From assembly GCA_947468085.1 (NCBI GenBank), contig CANIKY010000003.1, positions 1,853 to 65,852 on the forward strand: DNA of 64,000 bases, written 5' to 3'. Positions 1,460-62,959 of the stretch are shown piece by piece. Each line of letters begins with the position of its first letter. Position 1 is the first letter of the stretch. The notes beneath the pieces are model-generated. The model had not been told where the DNA came from. It saw only the letters and a list, made by a program, of their open reading frames with translations, and made no database searches. A program made the position numbers and the translations under genes. This stretch comes from Paracoccaceae bacterium (GTDB taxonomy: Bacteria > Pseudomonadota > Alphaproteobacteria > Rhodobacterales > Rhodobacteraceae).

Positions 1460-2782
1460 TCAGCCCACAAAGATCGGATTGGTGACGGCGTGCAGCCTGC
1501 CCGTGGCATCGCGCAATTCGGCCATGACAAAGCCCTCAGCGCCCACGAACTCTGCCCGTCCAGCAGCATTGGCTGCGGCGGGGTGATGGCTTTGCACCCC
1601 TTTTGCGTCGACAAAGCTGAGAGTCAGGGCAACGTCCTGTGACTGCCAGTCGGCTTGAAAGACAGCGCCTTGGTCTGTCGTCTCGCCCATGGCGGCCAGC
1701 CCGCCTTGCGCGGACTGCGCCTGCAAAATCAGCCGGGGACCCGAGGACAGGTAGTTTCGCCCCGCCTGAACCGCTTGCAAAACAGCCAAGGCTGTCAGGC
1801 CATCGGCCTCGACATGGTTAAAGCCCACCTGCCCCACGCCGCCCTCTGGCCCGTGGATATCACTTCCCGCCGTGGCACGCAGGCGGTGGCCTTGGGCAAG
1901 CCACTGGCGATACAGCGCCAACCCTTCTTCGTTGTAATCCGACCAAGGGCCGCCATTCCAGATTTCGACCAATCCGGCATTGCCCGGGCGCATATCGTCA
2001 TATTCCCATCGACAGCCTGTGCAGGCCGGATCGCCGGGCGACATCGGGTGGGCGATGACAAAAAGCCCGCCTTTGCCCATGATATCAGCCGCAAGCATCG
2101 GCATGGTTTGCCCCGTCACCGGCCCCACTCGCCATTGTGGCAGATGTTCCACCCCCAAGGCCACAGCATGGCCCCAATGGGTGGTCAACTCCATCCCACC
2201 CAGCGTCAGCAAATCATCGCCCGCCATGGAATGCACTTCGGCATGGCCAGAGGTGGTGTTGTGATCCGACAAGGTCATGAAATCCAACCGGCGCGCGCGT
2301 GCCCAAGCGACCAGATCGGCGATAGACCAACTGCCGTCTGAATGCAGCGTATGGGCATGCAGATCGCCGCGATACCAGCCACGGCCCCGCGCTTGGGTCT
2401 TGGCTGCGATAAAGGCGGGTTGGGCGGGGACGGGGGTGGTTTGGCAATCGATTTCGACCACGTAGTCAATTCGGCCCATCACGCGGAAACAATCCAAGTA
2501 CAGCGTCCAAGTGCCCGGTTCGATCGCGCCGGGCAGATAGCCCGGCGTGGCCGACGTTTGCGAAATCGCAAAGTCCCAGACCGGATTGTTATGCCGCGCC
2601 CCGCGCGGGCCTGCGGGGCCAAACAGGCTGAGCGAGATCATATTGTCAAAAAATGCCCCCGCTTCGCGTTGTGGAGAGGCTTTTAAACGCACGACCAGTT
2701 GGGTTGTGCCTTCAGGTACTTCAAAGGTCAGGGGCACATGGGCCTTGTGATGGCTCGCATCAAGTTGTCCGGTCAGGGTCAT
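1460..2782 (-). CDS. PHP-domain metallohydrolase (CehA/McbA-like) with N-terminal accessory domain
   Basis: PHP metal-ligand motifs GDLHAHTLHSDG, SDHNT, GMELTT, AHP, EIWNG, GSDIHG. Confidence 0.88.
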   Translation of the reverse strand: MTLTGQLDASHHKAHVPLTFEVPEGTTQLVVRLKASPQREAGAFFDNMISLSLFGPAGPRGARHNNPVWDFAISQTSATPGYLPGAIEPGTWTLYLDCFRVMGRIDYVVEIDCQTTPVPAQPAFIAAKTQARGRGWYRGDLHAHTLHSDGSWSIADLVAWARARRLDFMTLSDHNTTSGHAEVHSMAGDDLLTLGGMELTTHWGHAVALGVEHLPQWRVGPVTGQTMPMLAADIMGKGGLFVIAHPMSPGDPACTGCRWEYDDMRPGNAGLVEIWNGGPWSDYNEEGLALYRQWLAQGHRLRATAGSDIHGPEGGVGQVGFNHVEADGLTALAVLQAVQAGRNYLSSGPRLILQAQSAQGGLAAMGETTDQGAVFQADWQSQDVALTLSFVDAKGVQSHHPAAANAAGRAEFVGAEGFVMAELRDATGRLHAVTNPIFVG

Positions 2783-3840
2783 GCTGTGGCTCCGGCGGTT
2801 TGGGCGGGAAGGGGGGATTGGGCGAGGCCGATCAGCATCCCGTCGCGAAAGGCATGCAAGCGGCGAGGCAGCAGGGTTAGAAGGCGGCCAAGATCAGGGG
2901 CTTGGTCGCGCGGGCAGGTCCATGTGATCAGGTCGCCCGCCTCGGTCATCAGGTTGACCTTGGTCACAGGGCCAAGGTCGATCACCCGCGTCACGCGGGC
3001 GGCGGCACCCTTGGCGTCAAGGTAAAGATCCTCAGGCCGGCAAAGAAGCGCCACTTCGCCGTCAGGCAGCGGCAGGCGCAGGTCTAGGCCATACCAATCC
3101 GCAGCCCCTTGCCGCAGCGTGGTGGTGCAGGTGTTCATCGCGCCGATGAACTGCGCCACACCCAAAGTCGAGGGGTTTTGATACAGCGCTCCGGGCGGGC
3201 CCACCTGTTCCACGCGGCCGCCCTGCATCACCACGATGCGGTCGGCCAGTTCCATCGCCTCTTCTTGGTCATGGGTCACAAAGATTGTGGTCAGGTCCAA
3301 GCGGCCCTGCAACGCCTTAAGCTCTTCGCGCAATCCCTTGCGCAGATGGGCGTCAAGGGCCGAGAAAGGCTCATCCATCAGCAAAACCTTGGGCTCCACC
3401 ACCAAACACCGCGCCAAGGCCACGCGTTGGGCTTGCCCGCCCGACAATTCCGCGGGAAGGCGTTTGGCAAAGGCAGCAAGCCCCACCAGATCCAGCACGG
3501 CGGCTGTCTTGGCGGCGATCTCGGCCTTGGGCAAGCCGCGCACGCGCAGGCCAAATCCCACATTCTGCGCCACACTCATATGCGACCACAAAGCGTGGCT
3601 TTGAAAGACCATCGCTGTTGGGCGGCGGTTGGCTTGGGTGGCAGTCATATCAACACCTTCGATCCGGACAGACCCGCTGTCAGAGCCGGTCAGGCCCGAG
3701 ATGATGCGCAGCAAGGTCGACTTACCGCAGCCCGAAGGCCCAAGCAGGCACACCAACTCGCCCCGCGCCACCGCAAAAGAGGCGTCGCGCACGGCGGGGG
3801 TGCCTTGGTACATCTTCGTGATGGCGTCAATCTGCAGCAT
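2779..3840 (-). CDS. ABC transporter ATP-binding protein (PotA/MalK-like, C-terminal TOBE)
   Basis: Walker A GPSGCGKS, signature LSGGQ, Walker B LLMDEPFSALD, VTHDQEEA. ATG at 3840 chosen over the TTG at 3852. Confidence 0.95.
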   Translation of the reverse strand: MLQIDAITKMYQGTPAVRDASFAVARGELVCLLGPSGCGKSTLLRIISGLTGSDSGSVRIEGVDMTATQANRRPTAMVFQSHALWSHMSVAQNVGFGLRVRGLPKAEIAAKTAAVLDLVGLAAFAKRLPAELSGGQAQRVALARCLVVEPKVLLMDEPFSALDAHLRKGLREELKALQGRLDLTTIFVTHDQEEAMELADRIVVMQGGRVEQVGPPGALYQNPSTLGVAQFIGAMNTCTTTLRQGAADWYGLDLRLPLPDGEVALLCRPEDLYLDAKGAAARVTRVIDLGPVTKVNLMTEAGDLITWTCPRDQAPDLGRLLTLLPRRLHAFRDGMLIGLAQSPLPAQTAGATA

Positions 3841-3841
3841 G

Positions 3842-4642
3842 TCAGGCTCCAAACCCTTGGGCGATGCCCTTTGAGGTCATAAATCGGCGGCTTAGCAGCA
3901 TTAAAACAAAACACGGTACCCAGATCAGCACGCACAGCACCGCCGCCTCTTGCACGATGACTTTGGAGGATAGGGTCATCAGCAACAAAGGCATAGTGGT
4001 GACAGTGGGCGCGCCAATCAGAAGGGCGCTGTCGACCTCGAACAAGATCGAGACAAAGCCCAACACATAGCTTGCCGCCAGTGCGGGCATGGCCTGCGGT
4101 AAGGTGATGAACAAAAACACCCGCAGGCGTGATGCGCCAAGGTCAAATGCAGCTTCTTCCAGCGCAGGCGGGATGCCGCGAAAGGCGGCGGTGGGGATCC
4201 AGATCATGAACAGCACGGCTGACAGCATCTGCACCACCACCACGCCCCAGAAATTGCCGACCAACCCCAACTTCAGGAAGATCACCGCGATTGACACAAA
4301 CAGCGCAAACTTCGGCACGGCTTGGGCGGCGATAAAAGAAAACAGCAGCAGTTGGCGGCCGGGGAATTTCAGCCGTGCAAAAGCATAGGCCGCAGGCCAG
4401 CAGATCAGCGCCGCCGTGGTCGTGGCAATGGATGTCAGCGCCAACGAGGTCAGCACCGGCGTGATCACCGTCTCGCGCCCAAGCATCGCAAACCAGTATT
4501 TCAGGCCCCATTCCGTGGGCAACAAATGCGGGTAGCGCCATTTGACGGTAAAGGCCCATAAAACCACCGTCAAAATCGGCCCAAGCATGGCAAGGCCCAA
4601 GCTGCCAAGCAGAATCAATCCGCCAAAGGGTGTCCGTTTCAT
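3842..4642 (-). CDS. ABC transporter permease (PotC-like)
   Basis: Hydrophobic TM segments; EAA loop 'LEEAAFDLGAS'. Start at 4642 overlaps the upstream stop (ATGA). Confidence 0.92.
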   Translation of the reverse strand: MKRTPFGGLILLGSLGLAMLGPILTVVLWAFTVKWRYPHLLPTEWGLKYWFAMLGRETVITPVLTSLALTSIATTTAALICWPAAYAFARLKFPGRQLLLFSFIAAQAVPKFALFVSIAVIFLKLGLVGNFWGVVVVQMLSAVLFMIWIPTAAFRGIPPALEEAAFDLGASRLRVFLFITLPQAMPALAASYVLGFVSILFEVDSALLIGAPTVTTMPLLLMTLSSKVIVQEAAVLCVLIWVPCFVLMLLSRRFMTSKGIAQGFGA

Positions 4643-5532
4643 CGCGCACCTGCCGAGGATTTGACCATCGTGGCAATATAAAACCCACCAACGATGGACG
4701 AGATCACCATCAGCACCACCGCCTGCACTTGGGCGGATGCCGGATCGTGTAGATTGCCCAAGGTGCGCTGCATGAAGACGCTCATCATCTCGGGTGCGGG
4801 CGGGCCAAGCATATAGGGCACGGTAAAGGCGCCGATGATGCCCATGAAGATCAGCGCAAAGGCGATCAGCAGCGAACGGCGCATTTGCGGCAACAAAATC
4901 TCCCACAGGATGCGGGGGGCTTTTGCGCCAAGGTCGCGCGCCGCCTCGACAGCGTGGTCAGAGACTTGCGAAAGGCCAGCGCTAAGAACCAGAACCGGCA
5001 GGGGAATATTCTCCCACACAAAGGCCAGAAAGGGACCAACGGGGGTTAAATAGGGCGTACGGTACTGGGTGAAGCCCACCTGTTCCAGCATCAGTTGAAG
5101 CAACCCGTTCGGCCCCAAAAACCGCACCAAAGCGTAAGAAATGATGATCGAGGGCACGAACAGTGGAAAAAGGGACAGGCCGTGGATCATCGTAGCGATC
5201 CGTCCGGCGGAAAAGCGCAGGTATAGGGCTAAGCCAAAGGAAATCCCCAAGGCCGCCAAGGCCGACACCAATCCCATTTCCAGCGTATAGCGCAGGTTGG
5301 CCATGGTGTAGGCATCGTTGAAAAAGGCAAAATAGCGTTCAGGGCTCAGAGTGCCGTCAACTAAGACAGTGGCCGTAACCATCCGCACTGTCGGCCATAA
5401 GATCAGCGTGACCAAAAGCCCCACCGGCAGGGCCACAAGCGCAAGACCGGCCAAGGCTTGAAAGCCATGGCCGGTGCGCTGGGTTTGTCCGGGGGCGAGG
5501 CCCCCGGACGGTTTTGTGATGTCAAGCATCAA
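4639..5532 (-). CDS. ABC transporter permease (PotB-like)
   Basis: TM segments; EAA loop 'VEAARDLGAK'. Confidence 0.92.
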   Translation of the reverse strand: MMLDITKPSGGLAPGQTQRTGHGFQALAGLALVALPVGLLVTLILWPTVRMVTATVLVDGTLSPERYFAFFNDAYTMANLRYTLEMGLVSALAALGISFGLALYLRFSAGRIATMIHGLSLFPLFVPSIIISYALVRFLGPNGLLQLMLEQVGFTQYRTPYLTPVGPFLAFVWENIPLPVLVLSAGLSQVSDHAVEAARDLGAKAPRILWEILLPQMRRSLLIAFALIFMGIIGAFTVPYMLGPPAPEMMSVFMQRTLGNLHDPASAQVQAVVLMVISSIVGGFYIATMVKSSAGAR

Positions 5533-6671
5533 TCGCGAACGATGTTGGTGGCAACGTTCTTGTACCAGCCGTCATTCTTGGCAGTCTGCCAATCGCCCGA
5601 AGGGAAGGTCGGGATCGAAACCGGGATCACGTCGATGTATTCTGCCTTCAGATCTGCCGGCAGATTGTCCCACGAAATTCCGGGGAAGCCGCCGATATCG
5701 CGCACGCACGACGTTTGGGTTTCGGGCGAGAGCATAAAGTTCGCCAAGGCCAAAGCGCCTTCCAGATCGGTTGCGTTGGACGGGATGGCCGAATAAGCAA
5801 AGCCACCGCACAAAGCCAGATCCTGCAACTGCACGACCTTGACGGTTTCGGGCAGACCGCCGTTGTTGATGGCCTGCAAGGCCATATCCGACCAAGCCGG
5901 GATCATGTCGACAGCGCCCTGTGCCAAAAGTTGCAGCGCGGGGGAGTTGCCGGCGGGATAGGTGCCTTCGCCAAAGGTGAAGGGGTGCAGGTCCTTCAAG
6001 ATGGCCCAGCCCTTTTGCAGCATCTCTTCGGCCTTGGCGGCTTCGAAGTTGTCTTTTGTGAAGGCTGCGGGATCTTGACCATTGGCTTCGTGGATGGCGC
6101 GGATCACGAAGTTCGACCCCGAACCACCTTTGTCGGGGCGGCCATAGGTGAAGCGGCCCGGATTGGCCTTGGCCCAAGCGACGAGGTCGGCAAAGGTCTT
6201 GGGCGGGTTGGCAACTTTGGCGCTGTCATAGGCGATCAGAACCTGGCTGCCGCGATAGGGCAGGCGGATCGGGGTTTGAACGGCGGCGGGGTTGATCATC
6301 TTCAGATTCGGCACATTGGAGTCTGCAGTTTCCAGCCAAAGGCCAGCCTCGACCGAGCCTGCAACCGATGCGGGCTCAATTTCCTCAAAATAGTCGACCT
6401 GCGGGTCAGCCTTGGCCTGCAAAGCGGCCAAAGCACGCTCGGCGATCGTGCCGTTGCCGTCGGCCACGCCGCGGGTGATGGTCACATTGAACGTGTGGCC
6501 GGGATTGGCAGCCTCAAACGCGGGCTTCAGGATATTGTTCCACCAATCAGAGATATTGGTATCCCCGTCGATGTAAACTTGCAGGGTCTTGATGTCTGCC
6601 GCGGAAACGCGGGTGGACACAAGAGTGGCAGCAGCGGCCGAAGTGGCCAGAAATTGACGACGCGACAACAT
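5529..6671 (-). CDS. ABC transporter substrate-binding protein (PotD/YnjB-like), Tat signal peptide
   Basis: N-terminus MLSRRQFLATSAAAA..VSA is a twin-arginine signal; SBP motifs 'PPKTFADLVAWAKANPGRFTY'. Start reassigned to ATG 6671. Confidence 0.9.
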   Translation of the reverse strand: MLSRRQFLATSAAAATLVSTRVSAADIKTLQVYIDGDTNISDWWNNILKPAFEAANPGHTFNVTITRGVADGNGTIAERALAALQAKADPQVDYFEEIEPASVAGSVEAGLWLETADSNVPNLKMINPAAVQTPIRLPYRGSQVLIAYDSAKVANPPKTFADLVAWAKANPGRFTYGRPDKGGSGSNFVIRAIHEANGQDPAAFTKDNFEAAKAEEMLQKGWAILKDLHPFTFGEGTYPAGNSPALQLLAQGAVDMIPAWSDMALQAINNGGLPETVKVVQLQDLALCGGFAYSAIPSNATDLEGALALANFMLSPETQTSCVRDIGGFPGISWDNLPADLKAEYIDVIPVSIPTFPSGDWQTAKNDGWYKNVATNIVRD

Positions 6672-6723
6672 GGCAAAGATCCTTTCAAAGGGCGAACTTG
6701 CAGAAACAACCTCTGCCTCATCG

Positions 6724-6774
6724 GTAACTTTGCGATGACGCTGTGGTGAACCTTGGATGACGCCTATGTGACGC
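6724..6774 (-). promoter_or_regulatory. Tandem Pho-box-like array (five half-sites at 11-bp period)
   Basis: Minus strand reads GCGTCAC-ATAG-GCGTCAT-CCAA-GGTTCAC-CACA-GCGTCAT-CGCA-AAGTTAC, 53-103 bp upstream of the SBP ATG. Resembles the PhoB consensus CTGTCAT-N4 repeats. Confidence 0.72.
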
Positions 6775-6922
6775 TTCAAAGCGCGATGTTTAGGCTGGAA
6801 AACCTGCCCGATCTCAGCAAGGATAGGGCTGCGCTACCTCGCCAGAAATAGGTTGATGCCTGCATTTTTTGACAGCCATTTTTTGATGGATTTTTTGATG
6901 AGTTTTTTAATGAGAGTGATTT

Positions 6923-9769
6923 ATGCCAAAAATAACTTGTATAACAACGACATATAACGAAGGCGAATTGCTTTTGACGGCGGTAGAATCTGTTTTGAAC
7001 CAAAGTTTTGCCGATTTCGAATATCTGATTATAGATGATGGATCTTCAGAAGAAACGCTTGAAATTCTAGGCCGCTTGTCCGACCCACGGTTGAGGGTCA
7101 TCCGGCAGGCCAACGCCGGTTTATCCGCTGCGCGCAACGCCGGTATAGCACTGGCTCTGGGCGATTATATCTGTTTTTTAGATGCCGACGATTTGCGCCC
7201 GAATTGGTCCTTTGCTGCAATAGCCTCCGTCATTGATGCCGCGCAACCTGATCTGGTGCTGTGCCCCGGAATGCTGTGTGACCTGCGCGGTCAGGTTGAA
7301 GATTTTTATGATGCAGCGGTCTTTAGGCAGATTGCAGAAATCCTGCCGGGTGGGGTAAGTGAACGGCGCGATCCAAAACATACCCAACTTTGCGTCTTGG
7401 CGCAGCAGCTAGAACCGCAATCCGCCAACAAAGTGGTGCGACGATCGTTTTTAAGGGCAGCAGGGCTTCGCTTTCCTGCGCCCTATTTTTTTGAAGACAT
7501 ATTTTTCCATACCAATGCCATCGTTCAGGCCGATCGCATTGTCATTCTTGACTGTCCGGCCTTTACCTATTTTCACCGTTACCAACGGCGTCAAATTACC
7601 ACGACTGCGGGCGAATTGCGCTTTGACATTCTTGCCGTAGTGAAGTTGACGCTCGACGCCTTTGCGCTGCGACCAGAGTTCGGCAATTTGGCCTACCGAG
7701 GGGTTGTTTTCGCCAGTTGCCTAAAACTGATTGATTGGTGTGAAAACTGCCTGGGGCATCCACTACGCGCGGCCTTTCGGCAAAATGTCCAAGAGATGAT
7801 GGCGTCGTTACACTCAGGATTTAGTGAGATTCAGTGTGATCAAGGCTTACATCCTGCCTTTTTGACACCGCTCTGCCGACATCTTGGTATTTCAGAAGAA
7901 CGGGTGGGGCAGATGTACGTTAAACCACTGAACTTGGTTCAAGAACACCAAGTGGCCACTCCGTTTGGAAACCAAATTTTCGATCCTGACGAGCGGATCG
8001 AAGTGCAAGCATTTGGGCAAACTATTTCTATCCTTGCGCCCAAGATTGACTTTCTTCGAACAGATTCTTTCTACAGATTACGCCATATTTATCAACCGGC
8101 CCTCGCTGCGCAAACCTTGGCGGTTGAAGGTGTCGCTTTGGATATTGGCGCAGGGTTTGGCGTTTTCGCGCTGCCTTTTGCATTGGCTTACCCTGGGTGG
8201 AAGGTCTTTTGTTTTGAGCCCGATCCAACAGCCTTTGCATTCTTGCAAAAAAATATCTGCGATTTGGCACTGAGCCAAATCACCGCTTTGCCCTTTGCCA
8301 TCGGCCATCAAATAAGGGGCGGGCAGCAGGAAGAAAAAGCCGTCGAGGCGGCTTTGAGGCAGTTGATGTTCGATCCAAGCGCTCAGGTCGACAGGCTAGC
8401 GGCCTTGCTGCCCTTAATTGAACATAGTAAGTCAAAGATAAATATAGGGTATTTAGAGCGGGGGCACAACGCATCGGCAGAGTTCGACGTTGTCCAAGTG
8501 CCCACTCTTGCCGCCCAGGCGCTGGAAGTTTTAGCGCCGTCTTTGGTGAAACTCACTGCGCCCAAGGCGGAGGCTGAAATTCTTTCTGACCTGTCGCAGT
8601 CAAAGATTGATCATGTGATTGGTGAAAGCTGGCAGCATATACCGTCCGCTATCATCCATGCGCCGTCTAGGGGTTTGCGTCAAACTTGGATACCTCGTGC
8701 GGGACAATCTAAATTTGGGTTGCGCAGGTCAGTTGATTCGGCGGGCAAGTCATTAAGCTTGGATGTTGTTCTTGCGTTGCCCTTCGTTGGTAATGTCGAT
8801 TTTGCGTGGATTGCAGGACTGTTGTCTGATCCATCAAAAGACATAAACGTGCTTCTTGTTGGCGATAAGTTAACAAAACCCGCAGAGGCCGCAATGCAGG
8901 CCTGTTCGCGCAACGATCCACGCGTTCGCTTTTTGCATAGGCCAATCGACACGCAAGTGTCTGCTTGGAATTTTGGGCGCTTGCAATCGGCGGCCACACA
9001 TATTGCTTTTGTCGATGCGCAAAGTCGCCCGGGAAAGAATTTCTTTGCTGGCCTATTGGACCTTGCGCGTCAGACCGGGGCCGAGGTTGTGCAGGGGCCA
9101 TTTCGTTGCATTGGAGGTGACAATCTTTTGAAAATGGCTCCAAGCGTATCGAGGCAAGAAACCCATGCATCGCCCATGTCACGGTTTGAAATATTTGACA
9201 CGACCTATCACTACTGTGGCGTCTTTGAACTGATGGCAGAGCCGCCAACGATTTGGCGGCGGGTTTATCGGCGTGATTTTTTGGATAATCGGAGGATTTG
9301 GTTTCCTGATCATCTGGCGTCGACGGGTGAATTTGTTTTCCAGACGCTTAGTCTAAACAATATCCCTGATGTGCCGACTTTAGATGGTGTCATATTTTGC
9401 CGCGGCCCAAGCAAACCCGCTGGGCAGGACTTGGCCTTGTGCACCCTAGAATCGTTTAGGATTTTGCTTAATCGAGCCGGGGTCGAGGGGTGGAACGATC
9501 TTTCCCCTCTGTTTCAATCTATCGCACTCCAACTTAATGCCTGCGTGACGCATATTATTCCACAGGACACATCAGCGTTCCTTCAGGCTGCTGCGAAACT
9601 TTGGGCCTATGCCCACAAAGCCTTCGGTTCAGAGGCCTTTGAACAAGCGCCATTAGACCTGTTCGAGCCCTCAGAATTTGCGCAACAGTTCAATCGTATT
9701 ATTGCGCAGCTTGGTCCTTTGAGCACCACCCAAGCTTGGGATTTCTTAGAGCTAACCTCTGCGCTGTGA
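6923..9769 (+). CDS. Multidomain glycosyltransferase: GT2 + FkbM-family methyltransferase + second GT2-like domain
   Basis: N-terminal 'TTYNEG..IIDDGS..NAGLSAARN..CFLDADD'; central 'ALDIGAGFGVFA..CFEPDP'; C-terminal 'WNFGR..IAFVDAQ..IWRRVYRRDFL'. Confidence 0.85.
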   Translation: MPKITCITTTYNEGELLLTAVESVLNQSFADFEYLIIDDGSSEETLEILGRLSDPRLRVIRQANAGLSAARNAGIALALGDYICFLDADDLRPNWSFAAIASVIDAAQPDLVLCPGMLCDLRGQVEDFYDAAVFRQIAEILPGGVSERRDPKHTQLCVLAQQLEPQSANKVVRRSFLRAAGLRFPAPYFFEDIFFHTNAIVQADRIVILDCPAFTYFHRYQRRQITTTAGELRFDILAVVKLTLDAFALRPEFGNLAYRGVVFASCLKLIDWCENCLGHPLRAAFRQNVQEMMASLHSGFSEIQCDQGLHPAFLTPLCRHLGISEERVGQMYVKPLNLVQEHQVATPFGNQIFDPDERIEVQAFGQTISILAPKIDFLRTDSFYRLRHIYQPALAAQTLAVEGVALDIGAGFGVFALPFALAYPGWKVFCFEPDPTAFAFLQKNICDLALSQITALPFAIGHQIRGGQQEEKAVEAALRQLMFDPSAQVDRLAALLPLIEHSKSKINIGYLERGHNASAEFDVVQVPTLAAQALEVLAPSLVKLTAPKAEAEILSDLSQSKIDHVIGESWQHIPSAIIHAPSRGLRQTWIPRAGQSKFGLRRSVDSAGKSLSLDVVLALPFVGNVDFAWIAGLLSDPSKDINVLLVGDKLTKPAEAAMQACSRNDPRVRFLHRPIDTQVSAWNFGRLQSAATHIAFVDAQSRPGKNFFAGLLDLARQTGAEVVQGPFRCIGGDNLLKMAPSVSRQETHASPMSRFEIFDTTYHYCGVFELMAEPPTIWRRVYRRDFLDNRRIWFPDHLASTGEFVFQTLSLNNIPDVPTLDGVIFCRGPSKPAGQDLALCTLESFRILLNRAGVEGWNDLSPLFQSIALQLNACVTHIIPQDTSAFLQAAAKLWAYAHKAFGSEAFEQAPLDLFEPSEFAQQFNRIIAQLGPLSTTQAWDFLELTSAL

Positions 9770-62781: not shown

Positions 62782-62959
62782 CGCATCACCCTTTGGATTG
62801 ATTTGACTTTGGACTAGCCAATCCGCCCGCGTCGGGCAAGGGGTTTGGAATGAAAATTCCAAAAGCAGCGCGGCGTGTCACAGACATGTCACGACCAATT
62901 CCCGCTTGCGGCTTGGGCCAGCCCCCCTATGGTCGCGCTTTACCTTGCAGGAGATTCCC

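What the first reader, a model, noticed from the sequence alone, without database searches (positions are those of the whole stretch)
6724..6774. Five in-phase Pho-box-like half-sites upstream of the transporter operon
Seen: five 7-mers (GCGTCAC, GCGTCAT, GGTTCAC, GCGTCAT, AAGTTAC) at an exact 11-bp period on the operon strand. Established: PhoB binds CTGTCAT-N4 direct repeats with 11-bp periodicity. Inference: the operon is induced by phosphate starvation, which independently supports a P-acquisition role.
Basis: partly seen in the sequence, partly recalled or inferred. Interest (0 to 1): 0.65.

Follow-up and report, generated by a model that had tools for sequence, protein, structure and literature searches.

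The report
Phosphate-starvation operator before ABC importer operon
Five evenly spaced short repeats in front of a transporter operon are very probably a real binding array for the phosphate-starvation regulator PhoB; this is an ordinary kind of switch, and its interest is that it ties an uncharacterised importer and hydrolase to phosphorus scavenging.

Summary
On the minus strand, 6774-6724 holds five 7-mers (GCGTCAC, GCGTCAT, GGTTCAC, GCGTCAT, AAGTTAC) at an exact 11-bp period. The last one ends 52 nt before the ATG of a Tat-signal solute-binding protein that heads an SBP, permease, permease, ATPase, PHP-hydrolase operon.

- **Not chance:** 100 shuffles gave no match. A matrix trained only on other Pho promoters of the same genome (pstS, a second pstS-family gene, phnM, phnF, phoH, a lipid acyltransferase, a 2-AEP-like SBP) ranks this array as the best non-training 4- and 5-unit array in 3.2 Mb.
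- **Regulator present:** the genome has one true PhoB. Its recognition helix and wing match E. coli PhoB.
- **Conserved:** 18 of 20 orthologous operons in freshwater Rhodobacterales carry a strong 4-unit array at the same place, although the flanks differ. The other two carry one box.
- **Refinements:** units 2-5 are the conserved core, and unit 1 is lineage-specific. Unit 3 is a conserved non-consensus TTCAY. A -10-like hexamer lies exactly 10 nt downstream, and there is no -35.

This is a new member of a known kind. Binding and induction are untested. An earlier report of this scan on the operon had already noted the site.

The parts
6768..6774 (-). Half-site 1, GCGTCAC (spacer atag 6764-6767). 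This is the distal, lineage-specific unit.
   Evidence: It scores 8.4 bits with the matrix trained on other promoters. An equivalent unit is present only in the window, L023 and L026.
6757..6763 (-). Half-site 2, GCGTCAT (spacer ccaa). This is the first unit of the conserved four-unit core.
   Evidence: It scores 7.6 bits. Orthologs mostly read CTGTCAY here, and the GTCA positions are kept in 17-19 of 21 sequences.
6746..6752 (-). Half-site 3, GGTTCAC (spacer caca). This is a conserved non-consensus unit of the TTCAY type.
   Evidence: It scores -1.5 bits. T at position 3 is found in 18 of 21 orthologs and in none of the 18 training half-sites. A GCTTCAC unit also occurs in the phnC promoter of the same genome.
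6735..6741 (-). Half-site 4, GCGTCAT (spacer cgca).
   Evidence: It scores 6.3 bits. T, C and A at positions 4-6 are kept in 20-21 of 21 orthologs.
6724..6730 (-). Half-site 5, AAGTTAC (spacer cgat 6720-6723). This is the promoter-proximal unit and takes the place of a -35 element.
   Evidence: It scores 3.4 bits. Orthologs read AGGTTAC, AGGTCAC or CGGTCAY at the same place.
6708..6713 (-). Candidate -10 hexamer GAGGTT, exactly 10 nt downstream of half-site 5.
   Evidence: In the 21 aligned promoters, A at position 2 occurs in 19, T at position 5 in 14 and T at position 6 in 13. The same 10-nt gap before an NAnnnT-like hexamer is seen at phoH, the olsF-like gene, phnF and the C7 promoter. No sigma-70 consensus promoter is found in 6500-7000. 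This part is inferred: there are no transcription start data.
6680..6685 (-). Shine-Dalgarno sequence AAAGGA, 8 nt before the start codon.
   Evidence: Read directly from the sequence.
5529..6671 (-). First gene of the operon: a periplasmic solute-binding protein with a Tat signal. The ATG is at 6669-6671.
   Evidence: Pfam SBP_bac_8 3.7e-23 and TAT_signal. NCBIfam PRK11622 subfamily 130 bits, below its cut-off, and a weak match to 2-AEP SBPs. Orthologs align from residue 1.
4639..5532 (-). ABC permease 1.
   Evidence: BPD_transp_1.
3842..4642 (-). ABC permease 2. Its ATG at 4642 overlaps the end of permease 1.
   Evidence: BPD_transp_1 and the translation.
2779..3852 (-). ABC ATPase with a TOBE domain, PhnT2/PotA/UgpC-like.
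1460..2782 (-). Last gene of the operon: a PHP-fold CehA/McbA-family metallohydrolase, presumed to be a phosphoesterase.
   Evidence: NF038032 at 226.8 bits against a cut-off of 80. It is kept downstream of the ATPase in every ortholog whose contig reaches that far.

Best explanation
The five in-phase repeats are a PhoB operator, that is, tandem Pho boxes in the promoter of the SBP, permease, permease, ATPase, PHP-hydrolase operon.

Under phosphate limitation PhoR would phosphorylate PhoB. PhoB~P dimers would then bind head-to-tail to the 11-bp units. The four conserved units 2-5 would hold two dimers. The proximal unit sits where a -35 element would be, 10 nt upstream of a weak -10 (GAGGTT). 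From there PhoB would recruit the sigma-70 RNA polymerase and switch the operon on.

Unit 1 is an extra distal half-site, or part of a duplicated 22-bp box, in this lineage. It probably adds occupancy through cooperative extension. The conserved weak TTCAY unit 3 probably tunes affinity.

Shown here: the motif, its phase, its statistical rarity, its match to the genome's own Pho boxes, its conservation, and the presence of PhoB. Inferred: PhoB binding, the -10 and transcription start, and induction at low Pi.
For: - **Sequence and phase:**
- **Against chance:** no match in 100 shuffles.
- **Genome scan:** intergenic, correctly oriented GTCAY-N6-GTCAY pairs precede pstS (upstream of pstB-phoU-phoB), a second pstS-family gene, phnM, phnF, phoH, an OlsF-like acyltransferase and a 2-AEP-like SBP. 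Further matrix hits precede phnC and an LpxH-like metallophosphoesterase.
- **Matrix ranking:** a matrix built from 18 half-sites of those other promoters scores this array 20.9 bits for 4 units. That is rank 5 of about 6.4 million positions, and the four above it are all training sites. For 5 units it scores 24.2 bits, rank 2.
- **Regulator:** one PhoB lies above the TIGR02154 cut-off (342 against 296 bits). Its DNA-binding domain aligns to E. coli PhoB 1GXP at 2.8e-29, with RTVDVH-x-x-RLRKAL and TVRG-x-GY retained.
- **Conservation:** 18 of 20 orthologous promoters (SBP 76-96% identical) have a 4-unit array of at least 10 bits, against a background 99th percentile of 5.7. Two have one box. 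Homologs at 50-55% identity in other Paracoccaceae and a Rhizobiales MAG also have boxes.
- **Position:** the array lies at a fixed place 44-66 nt before the ATG in most orthologs, with a conserved -10-like hexamer 10 nt after the last unit and no -35/-10 consensus promoter.
- **Definition:** the 11-bp unit with a TGTCA tract and an A/T-leaning spacer follows PMC4415409 and PMC4447250.
Against: - There is no binding, footprint, transcription start or expression evidence.
- The window's own half-sites start with GC rather than the CT/TT usual in this genome. Unit 3 scores negative and unit 5 is weak.
- An odd number of half-sites does not fit a simple two-dimer picture. The internal 22-bp repeat (units 1-2 against units 3-4) suggests a different pairing register from the one that conservation suggests (units 2-3 and 4-5).
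- The orthologs are related, so their conservation counts are not independent events.
- Six other OmpR-family regulators are encoded in the genome.
Confidence: 0.85

Rival explanations
1. The array is bound by a different OmpR/PhoB-family response regulator that recognises similar 11-bp direct repeats. The operon would then answer to a signal other than phosphate.
For: Six further OmpR-family regulators score 144-189 bits against the PhoB model. The half-sites here begin with GC and include TTCAC and GTTAC variants that depart from CTGTCAT. A GCGTCAT-N4-TCGTCAT pair lies upstream of a peroxidase-like gene that is followed by one of those regulators, on C1.
Against: In most orthologs unit 2 is the canonical CTGTCAY. 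A matrix trained purely on pst, phn and phoH promoters ranks this site top. The TTCAC variant also occurs at the phnC promoter. No other regulator gene is linked to the operon in any ortholog.
Confidence: 0.07
2. The array serves, or also serves, the divergent low-GC GT2-FkbM-GT2 gene at 6923-9769. Under this reading it would be a bidirectional Pho-controlled region, by analogy with Pho-regulated glycolipid glycosyltransferases.
For: The two genes share the 251-bp intergenic region. L026 also has the GT2 gene as the divergent neighbour. Pho boxes next to glycosyltransferase genes are reported in marine bacteria (PMC4796936).
Against: The half-sites point away from the GT2 gene and end about 150 nt before its ATG. 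Of the 19 other orthologous loci, 18 keep an array or a single box without any GT2 neighbour, and their upstream flanks are unrelated.
Confidence: 0.05
3. The periodic 7-mers are a chance or mutational repeat, for example a slipped 22-bp duplication, with no regulatory function.
For: The 22-bp direct repeat 6734-6754 / 6756-6776 is 71% identical and could have arisen by duplication.
Against: No match in 100 shuffles. It is the top-ranked non-training array genome-wide. It is conserved in phase and position in orthologs whose flanks have diverged completely.
Confidence: 0.02

Closest known systems
E. coli pstS and ugpB promoters (tandem Pho boxes bound by PhoB~P)
   Same: Direct repeats at an 11-bp period, each with a (T)GTCA tract and a 4-nt spacer leaning to A. 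There are two or more boxes in tandem, in the same orientation as the gene. The proximal box replaces the -35 element about 10 nt upstream of a weak -10. They control a high-affinity ABC importer for phosphorus compounds (PMC4415409, PMC4447250; architecture here).
   Different: There are five half-sites rather than an even number. The flanking positions and spacers are GC-richer (GCGTCAY rather than CTGTCAT, no A/T-only spacer). One internal unit is a conserved TTCAY. The controlled transporter is not Pst or Ugp but an uncharacterised importer of the PotD/YnjB type with a PHP hydrolase.
Alphaproteobacterial Pho boxes (Sinorhizobium meliloti and others; Yuan et al. 2006, cited in PMC4415409)
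   Same: The same regulator family and the same TGTCA-type direct repeats in an alphaproteobacterium. The genome's own pstS, phn and phoH sites fit this pattern.
   Different: No published Pho box for freshwater Rhodobacterales was found.
Streptomyces coelicolor PhoP operators (GTTCACC direct-repeat units; simple and complex operators)
   Same: Units of 11 nt. The GTTCAC core equals unit 3 here. The number of repeat units per operator varies (PMC4415409).
   Different: A different phylum and a different regulator orthology group. Here TTCAY is the minority variant among GTCAY units.

Membership tests
PhoB-dependent Pho box operator | Two or more direct repeats of 11 bp, each a 7-nt conserved part with a TGTCA-like tract plus a 4-nt spacer | tested here: met
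   There are five units at an exact 11-bp period. Three have GTCA, one TTCA and one GTTA. The definition is from PMC4415409 and PMC4447250.
PhoB-dependent Pho box operator | Matches the organism's own Pho boxes at canonical Pho genes (pst, phn, phoH) | tested here: met
   With a matrix built from 18 half-sites of 7 other promoters, this is the best non-training 4-unit (20.9 bits) and 5-unit (24.2 bits) array in the genome. The training genes were identified.
PhoB-dependent Pho box operator | Same orientation as the regulated gene and located at the -35 position, about 10 nt upstream of the -10 | tested here: inconclusive
   Orientation is met. A conserved -10-like hexamer lies 10 nt after unit 5, and there is no consensus -35.
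PhoB-dependent Pho box operator | A cognate PhoB with the conserved DNA-recognition helix and wing is encoded in the genome | tested here: met
   TIGR02154 scores 342 bits against a cut-off of 296, next to phoU and pstB. The DNA-binding domain aligns to 1GXP at 2.8e-29 with the helix and wing motifs retained.
PhoB-dependent Pho box operator | Conserved in orthologous promoters (phylogenetic footprint) | tested here: met
   18 of 20 close orthologs have arrays of at least 10 bits and 2 have one box. Four homologs at 50-55% identity also carry boxes, while the flanks are unrelated.
PhoB-dependent Pho box operator | PhoB~P binds the site, and transcription rises at low Pi in a phoB-dependent way | not testable with these tools
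   This needs EMSA or footprinting and expression assays.

The most novel reading that the evidence does not exclude
This operator is one of the two most extensive in the genome. It has more in-phase half-sites than pstS and is conserved across freshwater Rhodobacterales. It may mark an unrecognised importer-plus-PHP-hydrolase pathway for a so far unidentified organophosphorus compound as a front-line phosphate-starvation response of these lake bacteria. The conserved weak TTCAY unit and the lineage-specific fifth half-site would then act as evolved tuning of induction threshold or timing.
Probability: 0.3. Interest if true: 0.55.

Novelty: new member of a known kind. Interest (0 to 1): 0.3.

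Why it matters
The element itself is a textbook type of switch. Its value is as regulatory evidence. It places an ABC importer that automatic annotation treats as polyamine- or 2-AEP-like, together with its PHP-fold hydrolase, in the phosphate-starvation regulon of a group of freshwater Rhodobacterales known mostly from metagenomes.

It also gives a first in-genome Pho box matrix and a candidate Pho regulon for this group: pstSCAB-phoUB, a second pstS, phnC, phnF and phnM, phoH, acyltransferase and metallophosphoesterase genes for lipid remodelling, and two uncharacterised SBP operons.

It offers a clean natural series (arrays of 2, 4 and 5 units, and a conserved weak internal unit) for testing how operator architecture sets PhoB response thresholds.

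Tried and rejected
- **Published alphaproteobacterial matrix:** Yuan et al. 2006 is not held. I used a matrix from this genome's own Pho promoters instead.
- **Firmicute homologs:** I scanned the distant Paenibacillus and Bacillaceae homolog loci for Bacillus-type PhoP boxes (TTHACA x4 at 11 bp). There were only 7 scattered hits. Two of them (L075, L092) lie near position 3800-3900, where the Firmicute loci appear to begin their transporter genes. This is inconclusive.
- **Ordinary promoter:** the sigma-70 consensus scan of 6500-7000 found none. This is consistent with activator dependence but proves nothing.
- **Array inside a longer ORF:** the longest ORF has a TTG start at 6779. I rejected it because orthologs align from the ATG at 6671, a Tat motif follows at once, a Shine-Dalgarno sequence precedes it, and upstream sequences are unrelated between orthologs.
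- **Other GTCAY pairs as Pho sites:** I rejected the pairs that lie inside genes, and those before efp and carA, because they are in coding sequence or precede housekeeping genes.
- **Crude gene calls:** my GC3-based gene caller misses low-GC genes and over-extends 5' ends. Its calls were used only as a guide, and every gene named here was checked by a profile search.

Full report
**1. The observation.**
On the minus strand, window 6774-6724 reads GCGTCAC atag GCGTCAT ccaa GGTTCAC caca GCGTCAT cgca AAGTTAC. The five 7-mers start exactly 11 nt apart, at 6768-6774, 6757-6763, 6746-6752, 6735-6741 and 6724-6730. They lie on the strand of the downstream operon.

A degenerate description of the array (KTYAY-N6, five times) matches once at 0 mismatches. 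A second match at 2 mismatches is the same array shifted by one unit. None of 100 dinucleotide-preserving shuffles gave a match.

**2. What lies around it.**
The last half-site ends 52 nt before an ATG at 6671-6669. That ATG is preceded by an AAAGGA Shine-Dalgarno sequence and followed at once by a twin-arginine signal (TAT_signal).

The gene at 5529-6671 encodes a periplasmic solute-binding protein (SBP_bac_8). In NCBIfam it matches the PRK11622 subfamily below the cut-off and matches 2-aminoethylphosphonate SBPs only weakly. It is followed on the same strand by:
- two permeases, at 4639-5532 and 3842-4642;
- an ATPase of the PhnT2/PotA/UgpC type, at 2779-3852;
- a PHP-fold CehA/McbA-family metallohydrolase, at 1460-2782 (NF038032, 227 bits against a cut-off of 80).

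An endonuclease/exonuclease/phosphatase-family gene converges on the operon's end (351-1445). On the other side a low-GC GT2-FkbM-GT2 gene (6923-9769) is transcribed divergently, followed by glpD and glpK.

The longest ORF over the SBP gene starts at a TTG at 6779 and would swallow the array. I reject that start, because orthologs align from the ATG at 6671 and their upstream sequences are unrelated.

**3. Is it a Pho box by the genome's own standard?**
The window is contig C3 of a 3.22-Mb, 59% GC draft genome. Its closest public relatives are freshwater Rhodobacterales MAGs named Stagnihabitans, Pseudorhodobacter, Tabrizicola and Gemmobacter.

The genome encodes exactly one protein above the curated PhoB cut-off (TIGR02154, 342 against 296 bits). 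It lies directly downstream of phoU and pstB. Its DNA-binding domain aligns to E. coli PhoB of the PhoB-DNA complex 1GXP at 2.8e-29. The recognition-helix motif RTVDVH-x-x-RLRKAL and the wing motif TVRG-x-GY are retained.

A plain scan of the whole genome for GTCAY-N6-GTCAY gave 31 hits. Those that are intergenic and point at a gene start precede:
- the pstS-family gene upstream of pstB-phoU-phoB (C45);
- a second pstS-family gene (C33);
- phnM (C58) and phnF (C178);
- phoH (C139);
- an OlsF-like acyltransferase (C20);
- a 2-AEP-like SBP (C46, four units in phase).

This is the gene set expected of a Pho regulon, so the motif is this organism's Pho box.

I then built a weight matrix from the 18 half-sites of those seven promoters, leaving the C3 site out, and scored every position of both strands. 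For four consecutive units the C3 array scores 20.9 bits. That is rank 5 of about 6.4 million positions, and the four above it are all training sites. For five units it scores 24.2 bits, rank 2, behind only the C46 training site.

Further high-scoring sites outside the training set precede phnC (C127) and an LpxH-like metallophosphoesterase of the kind used for lipid remodelling (C57). They also precede another SBP_bac_8 protein (C110), whose substrate is unknown. This shows that the matrix has specificity.

**4. Conservation.**
A scan of one genome per species returned 20 loci whose SBP is 76-96% identical, and six more at 50-55%. Wherever the contig reaches far enough, the order SBP, permease, permease, ATPase, PHP hydrolase is kept.

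In the 200 nt before the start codon, 18 of the 20 close orthologs have a four-unit array scoring 10-22 bits. Random 200-nt windows from the same loci have a mean of -12.9 and a 99th percentile of 5.7. The remaining two (L039, L041) have a single two-unit box.

Among the more distant homologs, a Rhizobiales MAG, two Paracoccaceae MAGs and a Rubellimicrobium MAG also carry boxes. A Devosia locus and two Anaerolineae loci do not.

The sequence upstream of the array differs completely between orthologs, and only one (L026) shares the GT2 neighbour. The array therefore travels with the transporter operon, not with the neighbouring gene.

**5. Anatomy refined.**
Aligning the arrays on their promoter-proximal unit shows that the conserved core is four units. 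These correspond to window units 2-5:
- **Unit 2:** [C/G][T/C]GTCAY, with a spacer ending in AA.
- **Unit 3:** G[G/C]TTCAY.
- **Unit 4:** GC[G/T]TCAY.
- **Unit 5:** [A/C]GGT[C/T]AY.

Unit 1 exists only in the window and its two nearest relatives, L023 and L026. Within the window, units 1-2 and units 3-4 form a 22-bp direct repeat of 71% identity. The fifth unit may therefore have come from duplication of a box.

Unit 3 is a conserved departure from the consensus. It has T at position 3 in 18 of 21 promoters, although none of the 18 training half-sites has T there. The same GCTTCAC variant occurs in the phnC promoter. GTTCAC is also the core of the Streptomyces PhoP repeat unit (PMC4415409). 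It is thus a tolerated weak variant, not a sign of another regulator.

Exactly 10 nt after the last half-site lies a hexamer, GAGGTT in the window at 6708-6713. Across the 21 promoters it has A at position 2 in 19, T at position 5 in 14 and T at position 6 in 13. The same 10-nt gap before an NAnnnT-like hexamer is visible at the phoH, olsF-like, phnF and C7 promoters. No sigma-70 consensus promoter is found in 6500-7000.

This is the classical architecture of PhoB-dependent promoters: the box replaces the -35. It is inferred here, not shown, because no transcription start data could be obtained.

**6. Mechanism.**
The most likely mechanism, at about 0.85, is as follows. At low phosphate PhoB~P binds head-to-tail to the 11-bp units, probably as two dimers on units 2-5. 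Unit 1 offers cooperative extension or an alternative register. PhoB then activates transcription of the importer-hydrolase operon from a promoter that lacks a -35.

The description of a Pho box as two 11-bp repeats follows PMC4415409 and PMC4447250. Each repeat has a TGTCA tract read in the major groove and a spacer read in the minor groove. PMC4447250 also shows that the information content of the 22-bp site predicts affinity and the timing of induction. This makes plausible, though untested, the idea that the conserved weak unit and the extra unit tune the threshold.

**7. Rivals.**
- **Another OmpR-family regulator (about 0.07).** Six paralogs are encoded. This cannot be excluded without binding assays. 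It is disfavoured by the canonical CTGTCAY in most orthologs and by the matrix result.
- **A role for the divergent GT2 gene (about 0.05, not exclusive).** This is disfavoured by the orientation, the distance, and the absence of that gene next to the other orthologs.
- **A functionless repeat (about 0.02).** This is contradicted by the conservation.

**8. Comparison and novelty.**
The element meets every sequence-level criterion of a Pho box. The position criterion is met only by inference, and binding and induction are untested. It works like the tandem boxes of E. coli pstS and ugpB. It differs in its odd number of units, its GC-richer flanks and its conserved TTCAY unit.

It is a new member of a known kind. 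I found no published Pho box description for freshwater Rhodobacterales.

An earlier report of this scan on the operon (e1-5278892) had already called this the strongest predicted PhoB site in the genome. My independent scan agrees for non-training sites and adds the unit-by-unit conservation, the -10 spacing and the lineage-specific fifth unit.

It rests on the operator together with the gene content, because Pho regulons also hold non-uptake genes.

**9. Verdict.**
The element is ordinary in kind. It is useful as regulatory evidence for an uncharacterised transporter-hydrolase system. Interest is 0.3.

Noticed in passing
window 6864-6914: A T-rich 12-bp tandem repeat (TTTTTTGATGAG, 3 copies plus a diverged fourth) lies directly upstream of the ATG at 6923 of the low-GC GT2-FkbM-GT2 gene. 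It could be curved promoter DNA, a regulator array or a slippage-prone tract. Its function is unknown.
   Followed up: no
window 62875-62892 (+): A second Pho-box-like pair, GTGTCAC-N4-ATGTCAC, scores 17.7 bits as two units, about rank 14 genome-wide. It lies in the intergenic region 14 nt before the longest-ORF start of a Tex-like gene (62906 onward). Tex is not a usual Pho regulon member, so this may be chance.
   Followed up: partly
G000:C46:8700-8754 (-): Four in-phase half-sites (CAGTCAT, ACGTCAC, GCATCAT, ATGTCAC) lie 47 nt before a second uncharacterised SBP (SBP_bac_6, weakly 2-AEP-like). This is the other extensive Pho operator of the genome.
   Followed up: partly
G000:C57:6499-6520 (-) and G000:C20:7095-7116 (-): Pho boxes precede an LpxH-like metallophosphoesterase (possibly a PlcP-type lipid-remodelling phospholipase) and an OlsF-like acyltransferase. 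This suggests Pho-controlled replacement of phospholipids in this bacterium.
   Followed up: partly
G000:C7:30511-30554 (+) and G000:C10:4267-4288 (-): Good Pho-box arrays lie before a xylose-isomerase-like TIM-barrel protein (AP_endonuc_2, 271 aa) and before an ORF with no family match. Both are candidate new Pho regulon members.
   Followed up: partly
G000:C1:20616-20631 (+): GCGTCAT-N4-TCGTCAT lies 120 nt before a 622-aa protein with an animal-haem-peroxidase domain, which is followed by an OmpR-family response regulator (C1:22638-23312). It may be chance, a Pho-regulated peroxidase, or the site of that other regulator.
   Followed up: no
window 6709-6747: An imperfect inverted repeat (15-nt arms, 80% complementary, 9-nt gap) spans the candidate -10 region and half-site 4. 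It is probably incidental.
   Followed up: no
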